Shown here one piece after another: positions 2,318-15,631 of a stretch of DNA of 64,000 nt. How positions within the stretch are numbered: position 1 is the stretch's first letter; every line of letters begins with the position of its first letter. This stretch comes from a virus. Taxonomy: Duplodnaviria > Caudoviricetes. Made by a program: the position numbers and the translations under genes. The notes below the pieces were generated by a model, which saw only the letters and a list, made by a program, of their open reading frames with translations, was not told the origin of the DNA and searched no databases. Location of the stretch: IMG/VR virus record IMGVR_UViG_3300050119_000088, positions 47,972 to 111,971 of that record. One strand, given 5' to 3'.

Positions 2318-2770
2318 TTAAATCAATGGTCTGTTCGGATCTCGTCCTTTTAGCATTCTGTTAATAGTTGATTTGTGACACCCCAAACGCCTTGCAATTT
2401 CTGCTTCGCTCAAGCTTTCTGAAAGCTTAATAACTTCTGAAGTGTCAATATCCAACATGGGATGTCTTCCTTTATTACAACAATCAATAGCATTGTGCTC
2501 ATGTGTTCCGAGAAACAGATGTTTTGGATTACAACATGGTGGATTATCGCAATCATGTAGGACAAGTAGCTCACCTGGATCTTTCTTATATTTAATATAG
2601 TAAGATACTCGATGAACCAAATACATCTTTTTGCCAAATCTAATTTGGCCATAACCTTTAACAATTGTACTACCGATCCAAGGCCAACATTCATTCTCTC
2701 CACGTTGAATGATGTTGGACCAGAATTTGATAGTATCATCAATATGTAACATGGGCAATGGAATAAACAT
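2318..2770 (-). CDS. HNH homing endonuclease with C-terminal HTH
   Basis: ECWPWIG, GYGQI, HRVSY, VLHDCDNPPCCNPKHL; C-term SEAEIARRLGCHKSTI. Confidence 0.9.
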   Translation of the reverse strand: MFIPLPMLHIDDTIKFWSNIIQRGENECWPWIGSTIVKGYGQIRFGKKMYLVHRVSYYIKYKKDPGELLVLHDCDNPPCCNPKHLFLGTHEHNAIDCCNKGRHPMLDIDTSEVIKLSESLSEAEIARRLGCHKSTINRMLKGRDPNRPLI

Positions 2771-4488: not shown

Positions 4489-6780
4489 TCATTTTTCACT
4501 CCAATTCTTCATAAACGGATTCCATTCCATTTTAATAAGTGGGACTTTGGGCCGGAATGTTTCCACCGCGTCATAAACAATCTTCTCAACTTGATTGACA
4601 TAATCAGGGTCGGTAGGACACATGATTTCGTCATGGATATTCATCGGAATAACACGCCAAGGATGAATACCCGACGGCTGAAGTTCCCAGATTTGTCGTT
4701 GAACTGCTTTGGTAATCTGGGCTCCTGAACTCTGAATAACATGATTAGCCGCTGCACGCATATTGTTGCCTTGCAAGCCGAATGCGGCTCCGAACAAAGC
4801 AGTTTGCGTTGCACCGCCGACAAGCTGTTCTCGATCTCGACGAACCACCTTAGTATTGATCTCTTTCCAATGCTTCGGTGGATGCTCTCCAAGATCAAAG
4901 AGTGCTTTGCAAATCATATTCTCAACAGTAAAGTAACGACGGAAACCCATCAACGACTCAATGTACTCGGCTGGATCGGCCCAAATAACTCGGCTACCGA
5001 TTCCATTGGGTTGAGTCATTGAACAGAAAGCTGTGAAAATCTTCTGTCGAGCCAAACCGACGCCATGATAACGACCAACAAAACGTTGGTATGCTGCTTC
5101 TGCAATCTCAACCGGAATACCGATTCGAGAATGTAGTGTGTTATGGTCGCCACCATAGATCAAAGCGAATACACCCCGCTTCGACATATCGTACATATCG
5201 AGTTCGCGGTCGCCGGCCGATGCTACAATATCTTCGTAAGTTTTTCCGGGAAACAAATATTGACCAAACAAAGCATGAATCTTCTTGCCCGATAGAAGAT
5301 CATTTCGCAAATCAATATCATTGTACGCAGCATCTGCAAGCACTACTTCAAATCCCGCAAAATCTCCTCCAGAGAGTTGCATGCCCGAGAAAGCAAGCGG
5401 AAAGCATCTTCGCACTTCTTTAGTTCGTTTGATACCTTGTGCATTGAGTTGGTCAGTGCCAGACATGCGAGACGATTTCGTTCCAATGATGACGAAACTC
5501 GCATGAAATCTTCCGGCTTGTAAAAGCTTGTCATAAAGTTCAAGTTCTTTGCCCGCACCGCGAGCATCGAGAACATTACGAGCACGTTCGGCGGCTGGAT
5601 GTGGAACACGACCTGTTCCCTTGCAAATTGCACAGGGGTAGCCAACTGGCATATCAATGCAGTCTTCGCAATCTTGTTCAGTGAGTGAAGCCACTTCTTC
5701 AAGAACAACCTTCTTGGTTGATCCCTTCATCGCAAGAATCTCTGTCGGATGCATCTTCTCTGTTACGTATCGCATTGCTGGGCCGGGTGCTGTTGGATAA
5801 GCTTTCTTCTTATCCAAAGCTGATTGACGCAATCGTTTGATGCCTTCAACATCGATTGCGAAACCCTTCCAACGAACTGCACCAACCATGCAAGCAAGTT
5901 CGGAATCATCGTCTCCCAATTCAGGTGAGCCGAAATACCGATACAATTTACGAGTAATGTCAACATCATTAGCCGCATACTTTCGAGCATACGTATTGAA
6001 TCCCCAATGATCAATGTGATGCTCGATAACGTCCGGCCAGGCTCCCTTCCAATTGTGACGAGAACCGATTGCACGAGCAAATGGTGCGTATCCGAGTTCA
6101 ACCGGATGGAACTTGGAATCAATATCAATATCCTGAAAGAACGTAACAAGATCCGGTTGAAGGCCCAAAGCGTCGGCCGCAAGTGTCTTCAACGCTGAAG
6201 ACGGAGCGAATGTTAATACAACATCTTTGAAATCAGGAACGATGTCACCTTCGGCATCTTCGATATCAAAGACATTCCAACGGGGAGCCCACTTGTTTTT
6301 CTTCTTGGCGAAATAAATATCCTTCAGTTGTACACGTCGCTCAAGTTCTTGTGCAAGATGCCATGCAAGAGCGGTTGGCACGCGACGGATTCGTACCTCA
6401 TCCCTCCGCATCATTGATTGATACGGGCCTTTGCGAGCATGGAGCATCAGATCCATCGCTCGAACTGGCTTGAGGCAATCACCATCGCGTGCCAACGGTT
6501 CATACTCAGCAAGCTCTTCGATCTGCTCGTCCGGATAAGAATCCTTATCTGGGAGCATGCTGAGCATAGAATAGATTTTGCAAATCTGGAACCAGTCGAA
6601 CGTCAGGTTGAATCCGACGATTCCGCCCGGATGATTGACGATCTCCTCGATTACCGAAAGTGTAGACGCGACGGTTTCCCGCCAGATTTCGTGAAGAATG
6701 ATCTCCTCATCATCCTTCGCGTACTGTAGGAGTACAGCGGGACCGACGAATCCACACGTTTCAGTATCAAGAAATATCAT
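4489..6780 (-). CDS. polA: Family A DNA polymerase with 3'-5' exonuclease, no 5'-3' exonuclease domain
   Basis: FLDTET and GFNLTFD exo motifs; motif A GGDFAGFE, motif B KRGVFALIYGG, NHVIQSSGA, motif C NIHDEI. Confidence 0.92.
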   Translation of the reverse strand: MIFLDTETCGFVGPAVLLQYAKDDEEIILHEIWRETVASTLSVIEEIVNHPGGIVGFNLTFDWFQICKIYSMLSMLPDKDSYPDEQIEELAEYEPLARDGDCLKPVRAMDLMLHARKGPYQSMMRRDEVRIRRVPTALAWHLAQELERRVQLKDIYFAKKKNKWAPRWNVFDIEDAEGDIVPDFKDVVLTFAPSSALKTLAADALGLQPDLVTFFQDIDIDSKFHPVELGYAPFARAIGSRHNWKGAWPDVIEHHIDHWGFNTYARKYAANDVDITRKLYRYFGSPELGDDDSELACMVGAVRWKGFAIDVEGIKRLRQSALDKKKAYPTAPGPAMRYVTEKMHPTEILAMKGSTKKVVLEEVASLTEQDCEDCIDMPVGYPCAICKGTGRVPHPAAERARNVLDARGAGKELELYDKLLQAGRFHASFVIIGTKSSRMSGTDQLNAQGIKRTKEVRRCFPLAFSGMQLSGGDFAGFEVVLADAAYNDIDLRNDLLSGKKIHALFGQYLFPGKTYEDIVASAGDRELDMYDMSKRGVFALIYGGDHNTLHSRIGIPVEIAEAAYQRFVGRYHGVGLARQKIFTAFCSMTQPNGIGSRVIWADPAEYIESLMGFRRYFTVENMICKALFDLGEHPPKHWKEINTKVVRRDREQLVGGATQTALFGAAFGLQGNNMRAAANHVIQSSGAQITKAVQRQIWELQPSGIHPWRVIPMNIHDEIMCPTDPDYVNQVEKIVYDAVETFRPKVPLIKMEWNPFMKNWSEK

Positions 6781-6971
6781 CCGGTAATCCGAGCCTGTAA
6801 CGGAATAATAATCGTATCCTGAGATTCCTCGTTAGAAACCTCAACATACGTCGGAGGAAGATTACAGGTGTGATTGCAAGAATCACAACGGTAATAGAAA
6901 CCCCGACGGGCCGATTGAACACACATCATCCCGTCAGGACAGCGGGGACAAAGCTTCTTTTGGAACTTCAT
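6777..6971 (-). CDS. Small zinc-ribbon protein
   Basis: CPRC...CDSC; stop overlaps the polA start; start revised to ATG 6971. Confidence 0.55.
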   Translation of the reverse strand: MKFQKKLCPRCPDGMMCVQSARRGFYYRCDSCNHTCNLPPTYVEVSNEESQDTIIIPLQARITG

Positions 6972-7782
6972 AGGGGACGCTCTTCTCCTGGGCGAGTGTC
7001 TTGATATCACCGAAAAGATCCGAATCGGCGATCTCTCCGGCTGCCCACGCAAGACATCGTGTTCCCATGTTGTTGCCGACACTTTCCCGAATGTGATCCA
7101 TCATGAGAAAAATCTCCTGACGATCACGAAGCTTCCGGGTCGAGGCTGGCCGCTTGATCGGTTCCTTGATCTTGATCTTCTCTCCCCGTTCTTTTCCTTC
7201 TTTGATCTTGCGAACAGCCTCGAACTGCTTCTCCTTGTTCCCGAGGGTGTAGAGATCCCGGATCTGCTGTTGAGAAAGCAAACCCCCGGCCGCTTCAACC
7301 TGGATCTCGGTGGGCAGTGTCAGCACGTAATAACGAATCTGAACCCAGCCACGCGACTGGTGCAAATCCGCCGCGACCTGCTCCTGTGTCATACCCGCTA
7401 TATACAGCTTCTCAAGAGCCTTGGCCTCTTGAACGATGTTGAGATCCTTGCGAGCAAGATTCTCGTCCAAGTTCATCAACCGAGCCTGGATATCCGTAAG
7501 GCCCACAACAATGTTACAAGGTGCAACTGGCTTCTCCAAAAGCTGGAGCGCCTTGAACCTTCTGTATCCACTGATGAGTCGGTACTTGAACCCCGTTTTG
7601 GCTTGGGCTGCTTCGTCGTAGGGCTGAATAACGAGAGCGTTCTGCAACTGATTCGCATCAATACTTCGGGCGAGGTCAACGACATCGATTGGAGCGATCA
7701 CTCCGCGACAGTTGAAGTCACTGTCAGCGTGGATCTCACCAAGCGGAATATCCTTCACATCCATAGCATACTCCCAAGCCAA
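6934..7782 (-). CDS. parB: ParB/Spo0J-like protein
   Basis: LARSI, YRLISGYRRFKA, ENLARKDLN, HTH MTQEQVAADLHQSRGWV. Confidence 0.88.
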   Translation of the reverse strand: MAWEYAMDVKDIPLGEIHADSDFNCRGVIAPIDVVDLARSIDANQLQNALVIQPYDEAAQAKTGFKYRLISGYRRFKALQLLEKPVAPCNIVVGLTDIQARLMNLDENLARKDLNIVQEAKALEKLYIAGMTQEQVAADLHQSRGWVQIRYYVLTLPTEIQVEAAGGLLSQQQIRDLYTLGNKEKQFEAVRKIKEGKERGEKIKIKEPIKRPASTRKLRDRQEIFLMMDHIRESVGNNMGTRCLAWAAGEIADSDLFGDIKTLAQEKSVPYEVPKEALSPLS

Positions 7783-8712: not shown

Positions 8713-9159
8713 TTACTTCCCTTGTCTATTCAATTCAGCCATCTCTAAGCAAATAATTCTTCTGAGTTGTTTTGCACTTTCTGTCAAAGGCATGTTAGAT
8801 GTACTTGTACATTTAGTAAGAAATTCAAGCATCAATTCTGCTTGGGCGTGTTTTATAATAAGATAAGGCAACAGTGCTTCAAGAAACGGTTGTATTTGAT
8901 TAACTTGTAATACCCAAGTATACGCTGTTTTATAATTTTCCTTGTCTCTTAGCTTAGAGCCAATGCTACCTAATCCTGTTTTCTTTTGTAACCAATCTAC
9001 TACCGGCTTATATGTATTCGTTACAGATACATGAAGCCCATAAGTATAGTCGAGGTACTCTTTACCTCGACGCTTCTTATGTTGGTAAACGGAAATTGAG
9101 CCTTCACCGTCAACAATACCAGCGATATATGAAAGCTGGATTGGTGTAAGCAATTTCAA
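8713..9159 (-). CDS. Free-standing LAGLIDADG homing endonuclease (copy 1, divergent)
   Basis: YIAGIVDGEGSI, VTNT, LPYLIIK, PLTE..., EMAELNRQG. Confidence 0.88.
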   Translation of the reverse strand: MKLLTPIQLSYIAGIVDGEGSISVYQHKKRRGKEYLDYTYGLHVSVTNTYKPVVDWLQKKTGLGSIGSKLRDKENYKTAYTWVLQVNQIQPFLEALLPYLIIKHAQAELMLEFLTKCTSTSNMPLTESAKQLRRIICLEMAELNRQGK

Positions 9160-11715: not shown

Positions 11716-11929
11716 CTAACGTTGATCCTACAGGATACTCACCGAGCAATATGAGACTATTGAGTCTCGCTTGAGCATCCACATGCTTGAAGCAACTCAT
11801 TTGATTTGGAAAAGCTTTACCTTTGTAATAGACGTAATGCTTTTTGTTTTCAAACCCAAAAAATGCAACGACCGCATCTCGTTCTGGAGATGGAGCCATT
11901 GCATCAATTGATTCATTGAGTGTAACCAT
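11675..11929 (-). CDS. Hypothetical protein
   Basis: ORF in operon orientation. Confidence 0.5.
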   Translation of the reverse strand: MVTLNESIDAMAPSPERDAVVAFFGFENKKHYVYYKGKAFPNQMSCFKHVDAQARLNSLILLGEYPVGSTLDEPNTKVRKRNAR

Positions 11930-11943
11930 ATAATACTTGAGTT

Positions 11944-12105
11944 TCAGTTCCCCGAACCCAAGTTGCCTTGCTTTTGAGAGGTTGATTGGAATAAGACTTT
12001 TGGCTTTGGTTTTAACCTTGGTTTCCTCGGGGCTTCTGTTACCGGAGGATAAGATCCTGGTTGCGACAATCGATAAAGATCAGCTTTGACTTTTGGTTTG
12101 TTCAT
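11944..12105 (-). CDS. Small basic hypothetical protein
   Basis: MNKPKVK... start revised to ATG 12105. Confidence 0.4.
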   Translation of the reverse strand: MNKPKVKADLYRLSQPGSYPPVTEAPRKPRLKPKPKVLFQSTSQKQGNLGSGN

Positions 12106-12443
12106 CTTTGCTCTGGTAGATAAATGATAACCCCGAGCTGGGATAAATCCCCATGTATTGCTTTGTACAAGCAATATCACTGCTCCACTCGGGGGTAACT
12201 TTCCAACGTATACGATTGAAAATTACGCCAGGACAATGGCGTCTTGTTATGAATCGCGGAGACCCAACGTCCGCGTCCATTTCTCAATGTGGATTACTGG
12301 CTTCTGGTTCCAAGCATCCACAATCGAGAGAACAATAGTTGCTCTTGCGAATCAACTATCTTGTATGTGTGTTACTTCGATTACTCGAAGCGCTACACAA
12401 AACAACTTCCGAGTAGCCAGACACTACTCATCCATAACAAGAG

Positions 12444-12511
12444 CCCTACACCTAGGATTCGAACCTAGCCGATTAACGTCGCGAAACATTAATCGTTTCC
12501 TGAAGAGTAGG
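12444..12511 (-). ncRNA. tRNA-like module A (no proper D-arm, 10-bp central stem)
   Basis: CCTAC..GTAGG acceptor, CTAGG-TTCGAAT-CCTAG T-arm, CGATTAATGT/ACGTTAATCG stem. Confidence 0.7.
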
Positions 12512-12587
12512 TAAATCCTGATTGAGTATTTGCTTCTAAGAAGCAAATAACGAACCATCTTACAAGGACGACTCTCCCAACCAGGAG

Positions 12588-12789
12588 CGGGCAGAGATGG
12601 AATCGAACCACCGACCACAGAAACATTGATTGGTAGAATGAAGCGGTGGGATTTGAACCCACGATCAGCGTGAGTTTTGCCAACCAGACTGGCACTCACG
12701 AGCTTTTGTCATGGTTCACCGTTGAGCCGCTACGGCACGCTAATTCTTACAATGATGTTTCTGTTGCTCTACCATTGAGCTATCCACCC
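12588..12789 (-). ncRNA. tRNA-like module B (outer), with a large insertion at the anticodon loop
   Basis: GGGTGGA/TCTGCCC acceptor, GCTC-AATGGTA-GAGC D-arm, ACAGA/TCTGT stem, GGTGG-TTCGATT-CCATC T-arm. Confidence 0.85.
12631..12750 (-). ncRNA. tRNA-like module B (inner), nested in the outer module
   Basis: AGAAT.AGCG/CGCT..ATTCT-ACCA, CCGT/ACGG D-like arm, GTGGG-TTCAAAT-CCCAC T-arm. Confidence 0.72.
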
Positions 12790-13175
12790 AAATATGCCGA
12801 TTGAGCAAGCCGAAGCTTCTTGAAATTTGTACAAGGTGTTCTGCCGAAGCAGTTCAGCAATGTTCAAGATTCCAAGTAATCTCTCAATCAGCCGTTTGAC
12901 CTTGCGACCAAACGTCGCTACCGTCGATTCAACGATAACGATAATCAATTGGCATCCCGCACACCACAATCGGGATTAGTCTTGCACCGGCTTTACATGG
13001 TAACATATATGAGTTACCTCATATACGCTTAGCCGATTCAGATTTCAGTGATCCGATCGTAAGATCGAATACTGGAATCCTATGCCTTCCCAACTGATAT
13101 CAAGTGGTAAGAAGCAACAGCTCATTTATTGAGCCAATCCTCCGAAGAGGGTTCGCCAAAACTACTTCCCACCAT

Positions 13176-13275
13176 CAGGGATCGCTGGAATTGAACCAGT
13201 CTTTCGTCCTTGGAAAATAGATCCTCAGAGAGGCTAATTCCAAGTTCGACGTGCAGCCGTTACACCGCAATCCCA
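13176..13275 (-). ncRNA. tRNA-like module C (UGG loop masked by an insert)
   Basis: GGGATTG/CGATCCC, GTGT-AACGGCT-GCAC D-arm, CTTGGAA/TTCCAAG, CTGG-TTCAATT-CCAG. Confidence 0.78.
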
Positions 13276-13276
13276 A

Positions 13277-13375
13277 AGGCCCAGCCAGGTTACGAGCCTG
13301 ATGTGTCACTAATGATTGTATTGAGTCTACGTCTCGTAAACACAGACTGTGCAATCATTCCGACACCGCTAGGCC
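13277..13375 (-). ncRNA. tRNA-like module D (8/4 geometry, no D-arm, long arm)
   Basis: GGCCTAGC/GCTGGGCC, CAGG-CTCGTAA-CCTG, GTGTC/GACAC, AATGATTG/CAATCATT, AGTCT/AGACT. Confidence 0.62.
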
Positions 13376-13631
13376 ATGTAAGGGCCGGGCATAATAAGAT
13401 TTACCGAATATTCTCGCATCGTAAGATGGGAGACATCCGACAGTGATCTACAAAGTGTTCCGGCCCCGCACACCGTTGAACGTTTCCGTAACGGGTACTA
13501 GTGATTACCGAAGGCCGATTTGGCAATCACCTTCCGACTTCACAACGACTTGGCCCGTTGCTGTCATCGGAATCCACACGCCACCGATCAAGATGACGTG
13601 CAGCCGGTTCGGTCACTAAGACCGTTCCAAA

Positions 13632-13895
13632 TTACGAAGGTGGAACCTGCTTGGACGGTTGAGCCGGATAGCCCATCGGCATTTGCTGGCCGGATGGCAT
13701 CGGAGCTTGTCCGACCGGGCCGGTGTACGAGTACGTCAACGTCTCATACCCACTGCAAGGAGCCATTTGCATCTGACCCTTGCAAGCCTGCTTGGCTGCT
13801 CTCTTGGCGGCTTTCGCAGCCTTGTGGCACTTGCCAGCCTCAGCCGGAAGTGACATCGCAATCAAGGCCACGAAAGCAAGTAGCATCCGAATCAT
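13632..13895 (-). CDS. Small exported protein with signal peptide
   Basis: MIRMLLAFVALIAMSLPAEA/ signal with A-x-A site; start overlaps the upstream stop (TGATG). Confidence 0.7.
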   Translation of the reverse strand: MIRMLLAFVALIAMSLPAEAGKCHKAAKAAKRAAKQACKGQMQMAPCSGYETLTYSYTGPVGQAPMPSGQQMPMGYPAQPSKQVPPS

Positions 13896-14629: not shown

Positions 14630-15631
14630 TCAGGCCGTCACGAGATCGGCCTTCGTCTCGGCCGCAGCGTTCGCCTTCGCGGCCTCACGATCCGCCTTAC
14701 GTTGAGCCTTGACCTCTTCATCCTTCTTGCGTCGGTCGGCGTCCTTCTGGCGATCCGCTTCGATGGACATCGAATCCATATGAAGCGTCCAGGCAACGCC
14801 CGTCTTGAACCCTTCGAGAGCCGTTGTCAGTCCGAGTTCGGCGACCAGTCGCGGGCCGACCTCATTCTGCTCGAACTCTGTCTTGATTTCGCCAAGCTTC
14901 CGGCAGTGCGGAACCGGCATGAACTCAGCGGCGTTCGGATTCCGACCTTGACGCTTGGCGTCGCGAAGTTCTTTGACGCGGGTATTGACGGTCGGAACGA
15001 ACTCGTTCGGCTGCATTGTCATCGCACGATCGACGAAGTGTGCTTGCTCATCAGCAGGCAGCTTCGCCAAAGCGTAGGCGTTGGACAAGTTGATCTTGTC
15101 CTCATCCACCAGCTTGGCGATGCGGGCTTCGAGCTTGATTAGCCCAAGCCGTTCAGAGATCCAGGTCGGCGACTTGGCCAACTTGGTCGCCAAAGACGCA
15201 GCGGTCATGGTCGGGTTGCCCGCCAGAATCCGCATGAGCTGCTTGCTGTACTCGACTGGCCGAGTCTCGACCTTGTGGATGTTCGTGATGATCTGGGCTT
15301 CGAGGACTTCGGCGTCGCTTGCCTCAATCACGTTGGCCGGGATCTCAGTCAGTCCAGCGTCGAGCGCTCCGGTGAATCGGTGCAGGCCGTCGATCAAGCC
15401 GTAAGTGATGTTACCATCACTGTCCTTGATCTCACGGACGACGACCGGATTCAGCACGCCCTTGGCCCGGATTGAATCCACCAATCCGAGGTAGTCTTCG
15501 GCCGTCTTGTTGACGTTCCGTAGAGCGGAAGGGTTCTCCCGAATCTGCGAAAGTTGGACAACTTTCGGTCGCGTCTTCGGGGTTGTACTTGCCATACTGG
15601 CCACTCCTAATTTGCTTACCGCAATCCTCAT
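14630..15631 (-). CDS. parB: ParB-like protein (second paralog) with charged C-terminal tail
   Basis: LVDSIRAKGVLNPVVVR, YGLIDGLHRF, HTH LATKLAKSPTWISERLGL; real start probably ~15594. Confidence 0.85.
   Translation of the reverse strand: MRIAVSKLGVASMASTTPKTRPKVVQLSQIRENPSALRNVNKTAEDYLGLVDSIRAKGVLNPVVVREIKDSDGNITYGLIDGLHRFTGALDAGLTEIPANVIEASDAEVLEAQIITNIHKVETRPVEYSKQLMRILAGNPTMTAASLATKLAKSPTWISERLGLIKLEARIAKLVDEDKINLSNAYALAKLPADEQAHFVDRAMTMQPNEFVPTVNTRVKELRDAKRQGRNPNAAEFMPVPHCRKLGEIKTEFEQNEVGPRLVAELGLTTALEGFKTGVAWTLHMDSMSIEADRQKDADRRKKDEEVKAQRKADREAAKANAAAETKADLVTA

What the first reader, a model, noticed from the sequence alone, without database searches (positions are those of the whole stretch)
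12588..12789. Nested tRNA-like element: one module inside the anticodon position of another
Seen: the outer element has a 7-bp acceptor stem, canonical D-arm, perfect anticodon stem ACAGA/TCTGT and canonical T-arm. The anticodon stem extends (AACAT/ATGTT) into an insert of roughly 130 nt. That insert folds as a second tRNA-like element with its own T-arm (GTGGG-TTCAAAT-CCCAC), D-like arm, long variable-type arm and an extended acceptor ending in an encoded ACCA (12634-12631). Outer positions 34-36 read CAT, but 32-33 are AA rather than the usual YU. Inference: either a rigid double-elbow RNA, or a precursor from which the inner RNA is excised, splitting or splicing the outer one. I do not know of this architecture in phages.
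Basis: partly seen in the sequence, partly recalled or inferred. Interest (0 to 1): 0.88.

Follow-up and report, generated by a model that had tools for sequence, protein, structure and literature searches.

The report
tRNA-like module nested inside phage tRNA
A phage from peat carries a tRNA gene whose anticodon loop is replaced by a second, serine-tRNA-like module on a long stem, so it cannot read codons; this resembles the unexplained "tRNA inside a tRNA intron" seen in gut megaphages.

Summary
On the minus strand of 12588-12789 lies a complete tRNA body. A 138-nt insert sits between the two strands of its anticodon stem. The insert prolongs that stem into a rod of about 23 bp and ends in a second tRNA-type module with D-arm, T-arm and a long hairpin. 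An encoded ACCA lies at 12631-12634. Chance is excluded by shuffles of three kinds. A second assembler gives the same sequence. None of 90 splice registers restores a loop with U33, so it is not a decoding tRNA in any spliced form I could model. The inner module is most like tRNA-Ser. No homologue turned up in 160 related phage loci or in INPHARED, so covariation cannot be tested. No RNA evidence covers the element. The phage holds at least three more aberrant tRNA bodies. The closest precedent is the introns in Lak megaphage tRNAs, one predicted to encode a tRNA (PMC6784885). Best reading, at confidence 0.4: a stable, non-decoding, double-elbow tRNA mimic matured by tRNA enzymes. Rivals are an inert recent insertion, a precursor of an excised inner RNA, or a true intron.

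The parts
12588..12789 (-). Whole composite element: outer tRNA body plus nested insert (discriminator G at 12588)
   Evidence: ARAGORN -i0,300 calls c[12587,12789] with a 129-nt 'intron'. Fold z = -3.74.
12783..12789 (-). Outer acceptor stem, 5' strand (GGGTGGA)
   Evidence: Pairs 7/7 with 12589-12595, two pairs G-U. Pair probability 0.97.
12766..12780 (-). Outer D-arm (GCTC-AATGGTA-GAGC)
   Evidence: Pair probability 0.92.
12755..12764 (-). Outer anticodon stem 5' strand ACAGA plus its 5-bp extension AACAT
   Evidence: Pairs with 12617-12626. Pair probabilities 0.98 and 0.97.
12738..12753 (-). 5' strand of the rod: ATTG, TA, AGAAT, T, AGCG. The last nine paired bases double as the extended inner acceptor.
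   Evidence: Helix probabilities 0.94-0.96. MFE fold.
12719..12737 (-). Inner TG spacer and D-type arm (CCG-TAGCGGCTCAA-CGG) with A14, G18-G19 and A21 equivalents
   Evidence: Read from the sequence. CM alignments to tRNA-Ser D-arms. Pair probability only 0.10.
12701..12717 (-). 17-nt segment where an anticodon arm would lie. It cannot form a stem. AACCATGAC within it is complementary to the loop of the long hairpin.
   Evidence: Read from the sequence. Position inferred from the alignment to tRNA-Ser. The pseudoknot is my inference and is untested.
12669..12700 (-). Long hairpin (7 + 4 bp with an AAA bulge, 7-nt loop GTCTGGT). It is either a class-II variable arm or an extended anticodon-type arm.
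   Evidence: Pair probabilities 0.82 and 0.98. ARAGORN -ps95 reads the loop as anticodon CTG.
12646..12662 (-). Inner T-arm (GTGGG-TTCAAAT-CCCAC)
   Evidence: Strict T-arm motif hit. Local Rfam tmRNA T-arm match, 15.8 bits. Pair probability 0.10 because of a competing pairing with GAACC.
12627..12645 (-). 3' strand of the rod (CGCT, TC, ATTCT, AC, CAAT, CA), with the encoded ACCA at 12631-12634
12617..12626 (-). ATGTT extension plus outer anticodon stem 3' strand TCTGT
12589..12616 (-). Outer variable loop GGTC, T-arm GGTGG-TTCGATT-CCATC and acceptor 3' strand TCTGCCC
   Evidence: T-stem probability 0.83.
12443..12591 (-). Neighbouring third tRNA-like piece (T-arm 12452-12468, weak acceptor). 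It shares an 18-nt direct repeat with the composite at the 5' edge of the insert.
   Evidence: ARAGORN -i. Repeat D2, 78% identity. Fold z = -3.76.
13177..13274 (-). Neighbouring tRNA body with a 29-nt insert that masks a canonical-looking loop CTTGGAA
   Evidence: Rfam tRNA 24 bits, gathering score 29. Fold z = -2.98.

Best explanation
SHOWN.
- This is a gene for a composite tRNA-like RNA in the variable tRNA locus that this phage lineage keeps upstream of its SNF2-type helicase.
- A complete class-I tRNA body has its anticodon loop replaced by a 138-nt insert.
- The insert prolongs the anticodon stem into a rod of 10 + 4 + 5 + 4 bp with three small internal loops.
- The rod ends in a second module derived from a tRNA-Ser-like gene, with a D-arm, a T-arm and a long hairpin.
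- No excision of a single segment restores a standard anticodon loop, so the product does not decode.

INFERRED.
- The locus is read through from the upstream minus-strand genes.
- Host RNase P, 3' trimming and the CCA-adding enzyme mature the outer ends, as they do for an engineered 'tRNA scaffold'.
- The insert stays in place. The result is a stable RNA of about 205 nt with two tRNA elbows held apart by the rod, with an anticodon-like loop (or a pseudoknot that masks it) at the far tip.

MOST SPECULATIVE.
- The RNA acts as a mimic or decoy for a host factor that recognises the tRNA body rather than the anticodon. Candidates are a tRNA-directed defence enzyme, a processing or modification enzyme, or SerRS through the long arm.
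- The other anticodon-less tRNA bodies in the same genome may do the same.
For: - Outer cloverleaf and rod: ARAGORN call at default threshold; pair probabilities 0.83-0.98; z = -3.74.
- Shuffle controls.
- 14 bp of complementarity beyond the stems a tRNA needs. Decay would not produce this.
- Elbow nucleotides are intact in both modules.
- 0 of 90 registers give U33.
- Inner module resembles tRNA-Ser. Six of the seven best CM hits in 100 tRNA-rich loci overlap tRNA-Ser genes. Ser is 75 of 918 tRNAs in the set.
- The same genome holds other non-decoding tRNA bodies: 13177-13274 and 12443-12591, and one with a 4-nt 'anticodon' loop at G000:C1:23174-23243.
- In 1.59 Mb of this genome plus 160 related loci, 7 of 28 strict tRNA bodies are non-canonical, against 0 in one shuffle.
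- No splicing or ligation enzymes are found in the phage.
- The same sequence appears in a 110,088-bp contig from an independent assembler at depth 55.6.
Against: - Only one instance is known. No homologue turned up in INPHARED, in 80 + 80 helicase-linked loci by blastn, or by covariance model. Structure and function therefore have no comparative support.
- Inner D and T stems have pair probability 0.10. The double cloverleaf is 6.9 kcal/mol less stable than the MFE fold.
- Rfam's tRNA model does not report either module.
- No promoter-like site lies in 11900-13700.
- No binding partner is identified.
- The precedent in Lak phages is described as an intron in tRNAs that are otherwise typable. 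That favours a mobile insert over a designed scaffold.
Confidence: 0.4

Rival explanations
1. Inert insertion. A tRNA-derived, possibly mobile element landed in the anticodon loop of a phage tRNA gene and killed it. The composite is a young pseudogene in a fast-turning tRNA locus and has no role of its own.
For: - The locus is highly variable among relatives: ordinary tRNAs, tmRNA, suppressor-type tRNAs, or nothing.
- The element is unique to this genome.
- The ends of the insert form imperfect inverted repeats, as in small mobile elements.
- Homing-endonuclease genes lie nearby (LAGLIDADG 8713-9159, HNH 2318-2770).
- Lak phage tRNA introns are present or absent between strains and identical where present.
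Against: - No second copy of the insert exists in the genome.
- No target-site duplication is visible.
- No remnant of a canonical loop is left on either side.
- All stems and elbow nucleotides of both modules are intact.
- Four aberrant tRNA bodies in one 112-kb phage is a lot for junk.
Confidence: 0.25
2. Precursor. RNase P cuts 5' of the inner acceptor, and 3' processing stops at the encoded ACCA. This releases an RNA of about 115 nt resembling tRNA-Ser. The outer halves stay paired or are degraded.
For: - The encoded ACCA directly follows the inner acceptor helix (12631-12634).
- The inner module keeps the acceptor/T minihelix and the elbow that RNase P recognises (established knowledge of RNase P).
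- M. smegmatis YrlA, another tRNA mimic, is cut by RNase P and receives CCA (PMC4201824; passages read).
Against: - The acceptor/T stack is 14 bp with a 1x2 internal loop instead of 12 bp.
- The second C and the A of ACCA are paired in the rod, whose helix probability is 0.94.
- The CCA may be a relic of the tRNA-Ser ancestor.
- The inner alone falls below ARAGORN's default threshold. At -ps95 ARAGORN picks a different acceptor with two mismatches.
Confidence: 0.15
3. True intron. The insert is removed by an unknown pathway, as is presumed for Lak-type phage tRNA introns. That would give a tRNA of about 74 nt with an unusual loop (anticodon CAT or AAT).
For: - Precedent of phage tRNA introns, one predicted to encode a tRNA.
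- IMG/VR tRNAs with inserts that bear a T-arm still regenerate canonical loops, e.g. L045 Gly tcc, L069 Ser gct, L109 His gtg.
- The 3' end of the insert pairs with the loop positions, as introns do in other pre-tRNAs.
Against: - 0 of 90 registers give U33.
- Too short for group I, and no Rfam match.
- The 4-bp helix is flanked by 1x2 and 2x2 internal loops, not by the two 3-nt bulges of a bulge-helix-bulge motif.
- No endonuclease or ligase gene is found in the phage.
- Relatives carry tmRNA, which points to bacterial hosts.
Confidence: 0.1
4. Derived tmRNA-like rescue RNA. The outer body would be the tRNA-like domain and the insert the mRNA-like domain (15-codon frame ATG...TGA at 12712-12665).
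For: - Relatives carry tmRNA at the same locus (L145, L234).
- The rod resembles helix P2.
- A pseudoknot and a short frame are possible.
Against: - Position 3:70 is G-C, not G-U.
- A full D-arm is present.
- ARAGORN -m finds no tmRNA.
- Rfam tmRNA matches only the T-arm, 15.8 bits against a gathering score of 47.
- The frame does not end in an Ala-rich tag.
Confidence: 0.02
5. Assembly chimera.
For: The record is a metagenome assembly. The only contig that bridges both junctions comes from a run that may be the source sample.
Against: - An independent assembler (Logan) gives a 110,088-bp contig identical over 12300-13400 at depth 55.6.
- The two halves of the outer tRNA are mutually complementary over 7 + 10 bp, which a chimera would not produce.
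Confidence: 0.02

Closest known systems
'Enigmatic' introns in tRNA genes of Lak megaphages, one (tRNA-Thr TGT) predicted to encode a tRNA itself (Devoto et al. 2019, PMC6784885 and its preprint 10.1101/356790; passages read, supplements not seen)
   Same: A phage tRNA gene is interrupted in the anticodon region by an insert that looks like a tRNA. No known splicing mechanism applies. It is not classifiable by Rfam.
   Different: - The Lak tRNAs could be typed (Phe, Gly, Thr, Tyr) once the intron was removed. Here no canonical loop can be restored.
- Lak phages are about 540-kb gut phages with an alternative genetic code. This is a 112-kb peat phage that reads well in the standard code.
- Here the insert continues the anticodon stem as a rod of about 23 bp.
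Engineered tRNA scaffold for recombinant RNA (recalled: Ponchon and Dardel; from no call)
   Same: A tRNA body with a foreign structured RNA grafted onto an extended anticodon stem. It relies on tRNA processing and stability.
   Different: That one is man-made. Here the graft is itself a tRNA-derived module, and processing is not shown.
tmRNA
   Same: A tRNA-like domain joined by a long helix to a further structured domain. It is encoded at the same locus in relatives (L145, L234).
   Different: No G3:U70, a full D-arm, no tag frame with a resume codon, and no detection by ARAGORN -m or Rfam.
YrlA / bacterial Y RNAs (PMC4201824; passages read)
   Same: A non-decoding tRNA mimic with D- and T-arms on the end of a long stem. 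It also occurs in phages. One member is cut by RNase P and receives CCA.
   Different: In YrlA the T-arm precedes the D-arm and the acceptor is a closed stem-loop. YrlA lies next to Ro60. Here the order is D then T, no TROVE gene is present, and there is no Rfam hit.
Group I introns in bacterial tRNA anticodon loops, and bulge-helix-bulge introns of archaea and eukaryotes
   Same: Position in the anticodon region. The insert pairs with loop nucleotides.
   Different: The insert is 138 nt with no group I core. There is no canonical bulge-helix-bulge, no endonuclease, and no functional loop after removal.

Membership tests
Decoding (elongator or initiator) tRNA | 7-bp acceptor, D-arm and T-arm with conserved elbow nucleotides | tested here: met
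   Outer body.
Decoding (elongator or initiator) tRNA | 5-bp anticodon stem closing a 7-nt loop with U33 and a purine at 37, directly or after removal of one intron | tested here: not met
   90 registers tried. 21 give a 5/5 stem and 0 of those have U33.
Decoding (elongator or initiator) tRNA | Recognised by standard detectors (ARAGORN default, Rfam RF00005 at gathering score) | tested here: not met
   0 genes. 0 matches. No tRNA hit on 12588-12789 even at E up to 10.
Lak-type phage tRNA intron (Devoto et al. 2019) | Insert in the anticodon region of a phage tRNA gene, not classifiable by Rfam, in one case itself tRNA-like | tested here: met
   Description from passages read.
Lak-type phage tRNA intron (Devoto et al. 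2019) | Host tRNA can be typed, with a normal anticodon loop, once the insert is removed | tested here: not met
Lak-type phage tRNA intron (Devoto et al. 2019) | Sequence or structure homology to the published introns | not testable with these tools
Group I intron | Conserved catalytic core (P3-P9, G-binding site), usually 200 nt or more | tested here: not met
   Insert of 138 nt. No Intron_gpI match at E up to 10.
Bulge-helix-bulge (archaeal/eukaryal) tRNA intron | Two 3-nt bulges on opposite strands separated by a 4-bp helix | tested here: not met
   A 4-bp helix (ATTG/CAAT) is flanked by 1x2 and 2x2 internal loops.
Bulge-helix-bulge (archaeal/eukaryal) tRNA intron | A splicing endonuclease and ligase are available | tested here: not met
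   No PF01974, PF01139 or PF09414 in the phage genome. The host genome is unknown.
tmRNA | G3:U70 alanine identity, reduced D-arm, tag reading frame, pseudoknots | tested here: not met
   3:70 is G-C and the D-arm is complete. ARAGORN -m finds 0. Rfam gives 15.8 bits against a gathering score of 47, on the T-arm only.
YrlA / Y RNA | Permuted tRNA-like domain (T-arm before D-arm) on a Ro-binding stem, next to a Ro60 (TROVE) gene | tested here: not met
   The order is D then T. No PF05731 in the genome. No Rfam hit.
Class-II tRNA-Ser (ancestry of the inner module only) | 3-bp D stem with long D loop, long variable arm, T-arm; best model matches fall on tRNA-Ser | tested here: met
   Six of the seven best CM hits overlap tRNA-Ser genes. 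The background is 75 Ser of 918 tRNAs.
Class-II tRNA-Ser (ancestry of the inner module only) | Paired anticodon stem and a 7-bp acceptor with free ends | tested here: not met
   The 17-nt segment 12701-12717 cannot pair. The acceptor is 4 + 5 bp with an internal loop and runs on into the rod.

The most novel reading that the evidence does not exclude
The insert is a self-contained tRNA-like intron. It carries its own acceptor/T minihelix and CCA, so that the cell's ordinary tRNA-end enzymes (RNase P, 3' processing) cut it out. The halves would then be rejoined or kept together by the long stem. That would be a third, protein-enzyme-borrowing route of tRNA splicing in bacteria and phages. It would explain the 'enigmatic' Lak megaphage introns and the T-arm-bearing inserts I saw in IMG/VR tRNA arrays (L045, L069, L103, L109). 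It would also yield a free tRNA-Ser-like RNA as a by-product.
Probability: 0.1. Interest if true: 0.9.

Novelty: new variant of a known kind. Interest (0 to 1): 0.5.

Why it matters
Phage tRNA genes are now read largely as counter-measures to host enzymes that cut or modify tRNAs. This phage has one ordinary tRNA and at least four tRNA bodies that cannot decode, one of which holds a second tRNA module. That points to tRNA shape, not decoding, as the useful property.

If the composite is stable in cells, it would be a natural tRNA scaffold and a candidate decoy. If it is cut or spliced, it would expose a processing route unknown in bacteria, and it would explain the introns reported in megaphage tRNAs. 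Either way it shows that standard tRNA finders miss such genes.

Tried and rejected
Homologue searches, all empty:
- blastn (distant mode) of 12380-13300 against 50,697 phage records: no match.
- An exact 24-mer in IMG/VR: 0 hits.
- The helicase alone in IMG/VR: 1 relative at 38% identity, with no tRNA.
- Helicase alignment A1 in IMG/VR: 80 of 280 relatives kept. In JGI metagenomes: 80 of 485 kept.
- No nucleotide similarity beyond generic T-arms: best E 0.098 and 0.64.
- The closest helicase among 5.8 billion proteins is 55% identical, or 58% over half its length. Close relatives do not seem to be sequenced.

Covariance model R1 (inner module plus rod, built from this one sequence):
- It gave no credible hit in the 160 helicase loci.
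- The best hit, L172 7023-7152 (27 bits), lies inside a ParB-like ORF.
- A 28-residue BLASTP match (E = 9e-4) links the ORF over the element with this phage's ParB-like protein. It had no counterpart in L172, so I took it as chance.
- Only L003-L102 of the T-loop loci L003-L121 were searched with R1.

Other negative or dropped leads:
- ARAGORN with introns on tRNA arrays gave 168 'intron' calls in L003-L121. By my reading of the listing, most join halves of neighbouring genes. Such calls therefore need checking by hand.
- D-arm comparison did not single out an isotype: Ser was 4 of the top 40. The isotype of the outer body is unresolved.
- The apparent shared edge motifs of elements 2 and 3 (TTGTAAGA, CAATCA) pair differently in the two folds. 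I dropped them as splice signals. Only the 18-nt repeat remains.
- Sequencing runs: RNA-library contigs X5 and X6 cover only 12300-12429 and 12300-12406. There is no cover over the element, which shows nothing either way. X3's 151-nt contig (12486-12636) reaches only about 11 nt into the insert, so it does not count as bridging.
- No sigma-70-like promoter in 11900-13700.
- Papers: five of the searches found no report of a nested tRNA in a phage. The search led to the Lak paper. Supplementary Table 6 of that paper could not be seen.

Full report
WHAT IS THERE

The window is the right-hand 64 kb of a 111,971-bp IMG/VR virus record that CheckV rates complete. It encodes family A DNA polymerase, an SNF2-type helicase, a primase, two ParB-like proteins and a P22-type coat protein. 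It is therefore a tailed phage. Runs that hold its DNA are labelled peat metagenomes.

The finding lies on the minus strand. From 12789 down to 12588 one reads:
- a 7-bp acceptor stem with two G-U pairs;
- T8, and a D-arm GCTC-AATGGTA-GAGC;
- the stem ACAGA;
- 138 nt of insert;
- TCTGT, a 4-nt variable loop, the T-arm GGTGG-TTCGATT-CCATC, the acceptor 3' strand and a discriminator G.

The first and last five bases of the insert (AACAT/ATGTT) prolong the anticodon stem. Three further helices follow: ATTG/CAAT, AGAAT/ATTCT and AGCG/CGCT. They are separated by 1x2, 2x2 and 1x2 internal loops, which gives a rod of about 23 bp.

At its end sit four pieces:
- a D-type hairpin with the A14, G18-G19 and A21 equivalents;
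- a 17-nt unpaired segment;
- a 32-nt hairpin with a 7-nt loop;
- a textbook T-arm, GTGGG-TTCAAAT-CCCAC.

ACCA follows the inner acceptor at 12634-12631.

IS IT MORE THAN CHANCE, AND IS IT REAL DNA?

- ARAGORN finds nothing in the window with default settings. Rfam finds nothing at gathering scores.
- With introns allowed, ARAGORN calls two adjacent genes at its normal threshold: c[12587,12789] and c[12443,12591].
- The same run on 100 dinucleotide shuffles of the whole genome gave 3 calls in all, one with an intron.
- A strict T-arm pattern occurs 9 times in the genome against 0.72 on average in shuffles (maximum 3). Three of the nine lie within 210 nt here.
- The 208-nt stretch folds 3.7 standard deviations better than its shuffles, and 0 of 200 shuffles fold as well.
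- A contig of 110,088 bp made by another assembler from a public run is identical over 12300-13400 at depth 55.6. That run may be the source sample. A second study holds identical short contigs that reach the 3' edge of the insert but do not bridge it.
- I rate an assembly chimera at about 2%.

HOW FAR DOES THE STRUCTURE HOLD?

In the nearest-neighbour ensemble the outer acceptor, D, anticodon and T stems and all four rod helices have pair probabilities of 0.83-0.98. The long hairpin has 0.82-0.98.

The inner D and T stems reach only 0.10. The segment GAACC can pair with the GGTTC of the inner T-arm. The double cloverleaf as drawn costs 6.9 kcal/mol more than the minimum-energy fold. Many real tRNAs also fail such predictions, so this is a lack of support rather than a refutation. 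The inner cloverleaf rests on sequence motifs alone.

IT DOES NOT DECODE

I tried every way of deleting one segment so as to leave 5 bp + 7 nt + 5 bp between the D-arm and the T-arm. That made 90 registers. 21 give a perfect stem, and none has U33.

- The insert is too short for a group I intron and matches no Rfam family even at E up to 10.
- Its base has a 4-bp helix between internal loops, not a bulge-helix-bulge.
- The phage encodes no RtcB, tRNA-intron endonuclease, Rnl-type ligase, CCA-adding enzyme or Ro60.
- The outer body lacks G3:U70. ARAGORN's tmRNA search is negative.

WHAT THE INNER MODULE IS

A covariance model of the insert, built from this one sequence and my structure, was run over 100 tRNA-rich phage loci. 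Six of its seven best matches fall on tRNA-Ser genes and the seventh on tRNA-Cys. Ser makes up 75 of 918 tRNAs in my collected loci.

The alignments match several features:
- the TG spacer;
- the 3-bp D stem with its long loop;
- the T-arm;
- the start of the acceptor 3' strand.

The 17-nt segment sits where the anticodon arm would be, and the long hairpin where the class-II variable arm would be.

Alternatively, ARAGORN at a slightly relaxed threshold reads the tip of that hairpin as an anticodon arm with loop GTCTGGT (U33, G37, anticodon CTG). That reading uses a poorer acceptor.

Nine bases of the 17-nt segment are complementary to this loop, so a pseudoknot that masks it is possible. This is my inference and is untested.

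The ACCA may be a relic of a tRNA-Ser gene with an encoded CCA.

CONTEXT

The element lies in about 1.6 kb without convincing ORFs, upstream of the helicase on the same strand.

I took 160 loci around helicase relatives of 38-53% identity from IMG/VR and JGI metagenomes. The same position often holds:
- one or a few ordinary tRNAs;
- sometimes a tmRNA (L145, L234);
- sometimes suppressor-type tRNAs (L182, L198);
- in L181, three tRNA bodies with inserts.

None resembles this element in sequence or by the covariance model. The nearest helicase in 5.8 billion proteins is only 55% identical. Covariation, the test that would settle the structure, cannot be done now.

The phage itself has one normal tRNA (Thr TGT). 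Besides the composite, it has at least three further aberrant tRNA bodies:
- 13177-13274, where a canonical-looking CTTGGAA loop is masked by a 29-nt insert;
- 12443-12591;
- one outside the window whose 'anticodon' arm ends in four bases.

A strict scan of 1.59 Mb found 21 canonical and 7 non-canonical tRNA bodies in this lineage, and none in a shuffle.

EXPRESSION

There is no evidence either way. Contigs from two RNA libraries stop at 12429 and 12406 and do not cover the element.

PRECEDENT

Most are neighbouring or truncated genes.

Some are tRNAs with 44-99-nt inserts that carry a T-arm-like hairpin and still regenerate canonical loops: L045, L069, L103, L109.

Devoto et al. 2019 reported 'enigmatic' introns in Lak megaphage tRNAs (Phe, Gly, Thr, Tyr). 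They state that the Thr(TGT) intron 'itself may encode a tRNA' (PMC6784885 and preprint; passages read; supplement not seen). The nesting as such therefore has a published precedent, with no mechanism.

The present case differs in three ways:
- it cannot yield a normal tRNA;
- its insert is fused to the host stem as one long helix;
- it sits in a much smaller, standard-code phage.

VERDICT

What it is: a tRNA gene carrying a tRNA-Ser-derived module in place of its anticodon loop. It is real and non-random (confidence about 0.9).

How it works is inferred.
- I favour, at 0.4, a stable double-elbow tRNA mimic. It would be matured at the outer ends by host tRNA enzymes and act through tRNA shape.
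  - The 14 extra base pairs of the rod, the intact elbows and the company of other anticodon-less tRNA bodies speak for selection on structure.
  - Nothing speaks for splicing.
- An inert recent insertion: 0.25.
- A precursor of an excised inner RNA: 0.15.
- A true intron: 0.1.

The finding is a new variant of a known but unexplained kind. Interest is 0.5.

Noticed in passing
window 13177-13274 (-): A tRNA body (Rfam tRNA 24 bits, below the gathering score of 29). A canonical-looking loop CTTGGAA is followed by a 29-nt insert whose end pairs with all seven loop bases. The anticodon stem has only 3 good pairs.
   Followed up: partly
window 12443-12591 (-): A third tRNA-like piece with a perfect T-arm (12452-12468), a 10-bp hairpin before it and a weak acceptor. 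It overlaps the composite by 5 bases and shares an 18-nt direct repeat with it (12558-12575 and 12745-12762).
   Followed up: partly
G000:C1:23174-23243 (-), outside the window: A tRNA body with good acceptor, D and T arms whose 'anticodon' arm closes on a 4-nt loop. ARAGORN reports a two-base anticodon.
   Followed up: no
L145 4166-4495; L234 3203-3572; L138/L139 about 4558-4660: Relatives of this phage carry a tmRNA gene next to the helicase gene: upstream of it in L145, L138 and L139, just downstream of it in L234. The predicted tags are ATPVRLAA and VDDYAMAA.
   Followed up: no
L181 527-657, 727-850, 1406-1499: A relative (helicase 48% identical) has three tRNA bodies with 20-64-nt expansions of the anticodon arm, beside five ordinary tRNAs.
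   Followed up: partly
L045 3871-4021 and 2224-2380; L069 (Gly tcc, Ser gct); L109 7048-7164 (-); L103, L067, L104 (Thr tgt): tRNAs in large IMG/VR phage contigs with 44-99-nt inserts that contain a T-arm-like hairpin and still leave canonical anticodon loops. In the L045 and L069 tRNAs (Gly and Ser) the inserts begin TGTATA or GTATAC and hold a small hairpin with an AGTAAA-type loop. These are probably the kind of intron reported for Lak megaphages.
   Followed up: partly
L182 3539-3612; L198 4343-4414: Relatives carry tRNAs with anticodons CTA and TTA (stop-codon readers) at the same locus.
   Followed up: no
window 8713-9159 (-) and 2318-2770 (-): Free-standing homing-endonuclease genes: LAGLIDADG just downstream of the helicase, and HNH further on.
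   Followed up: no
window 6934-7782 (-) and 14630-15631 (-): Two ParB-like genes flank the replication and tRNA region. The 5' end of the first, and of its counterpart in L172, gave weak spurious matches to the inner module.
   Followed up: yes
window 12406-12429: Contigs from two RNA libraries of different studies end here, just downstream of the tRNA-like cluster on the minus strand, while DNA contigs run on. This is a weak hint of an RNA end, or of failure to assemble structured RNA.
   Followed up: no
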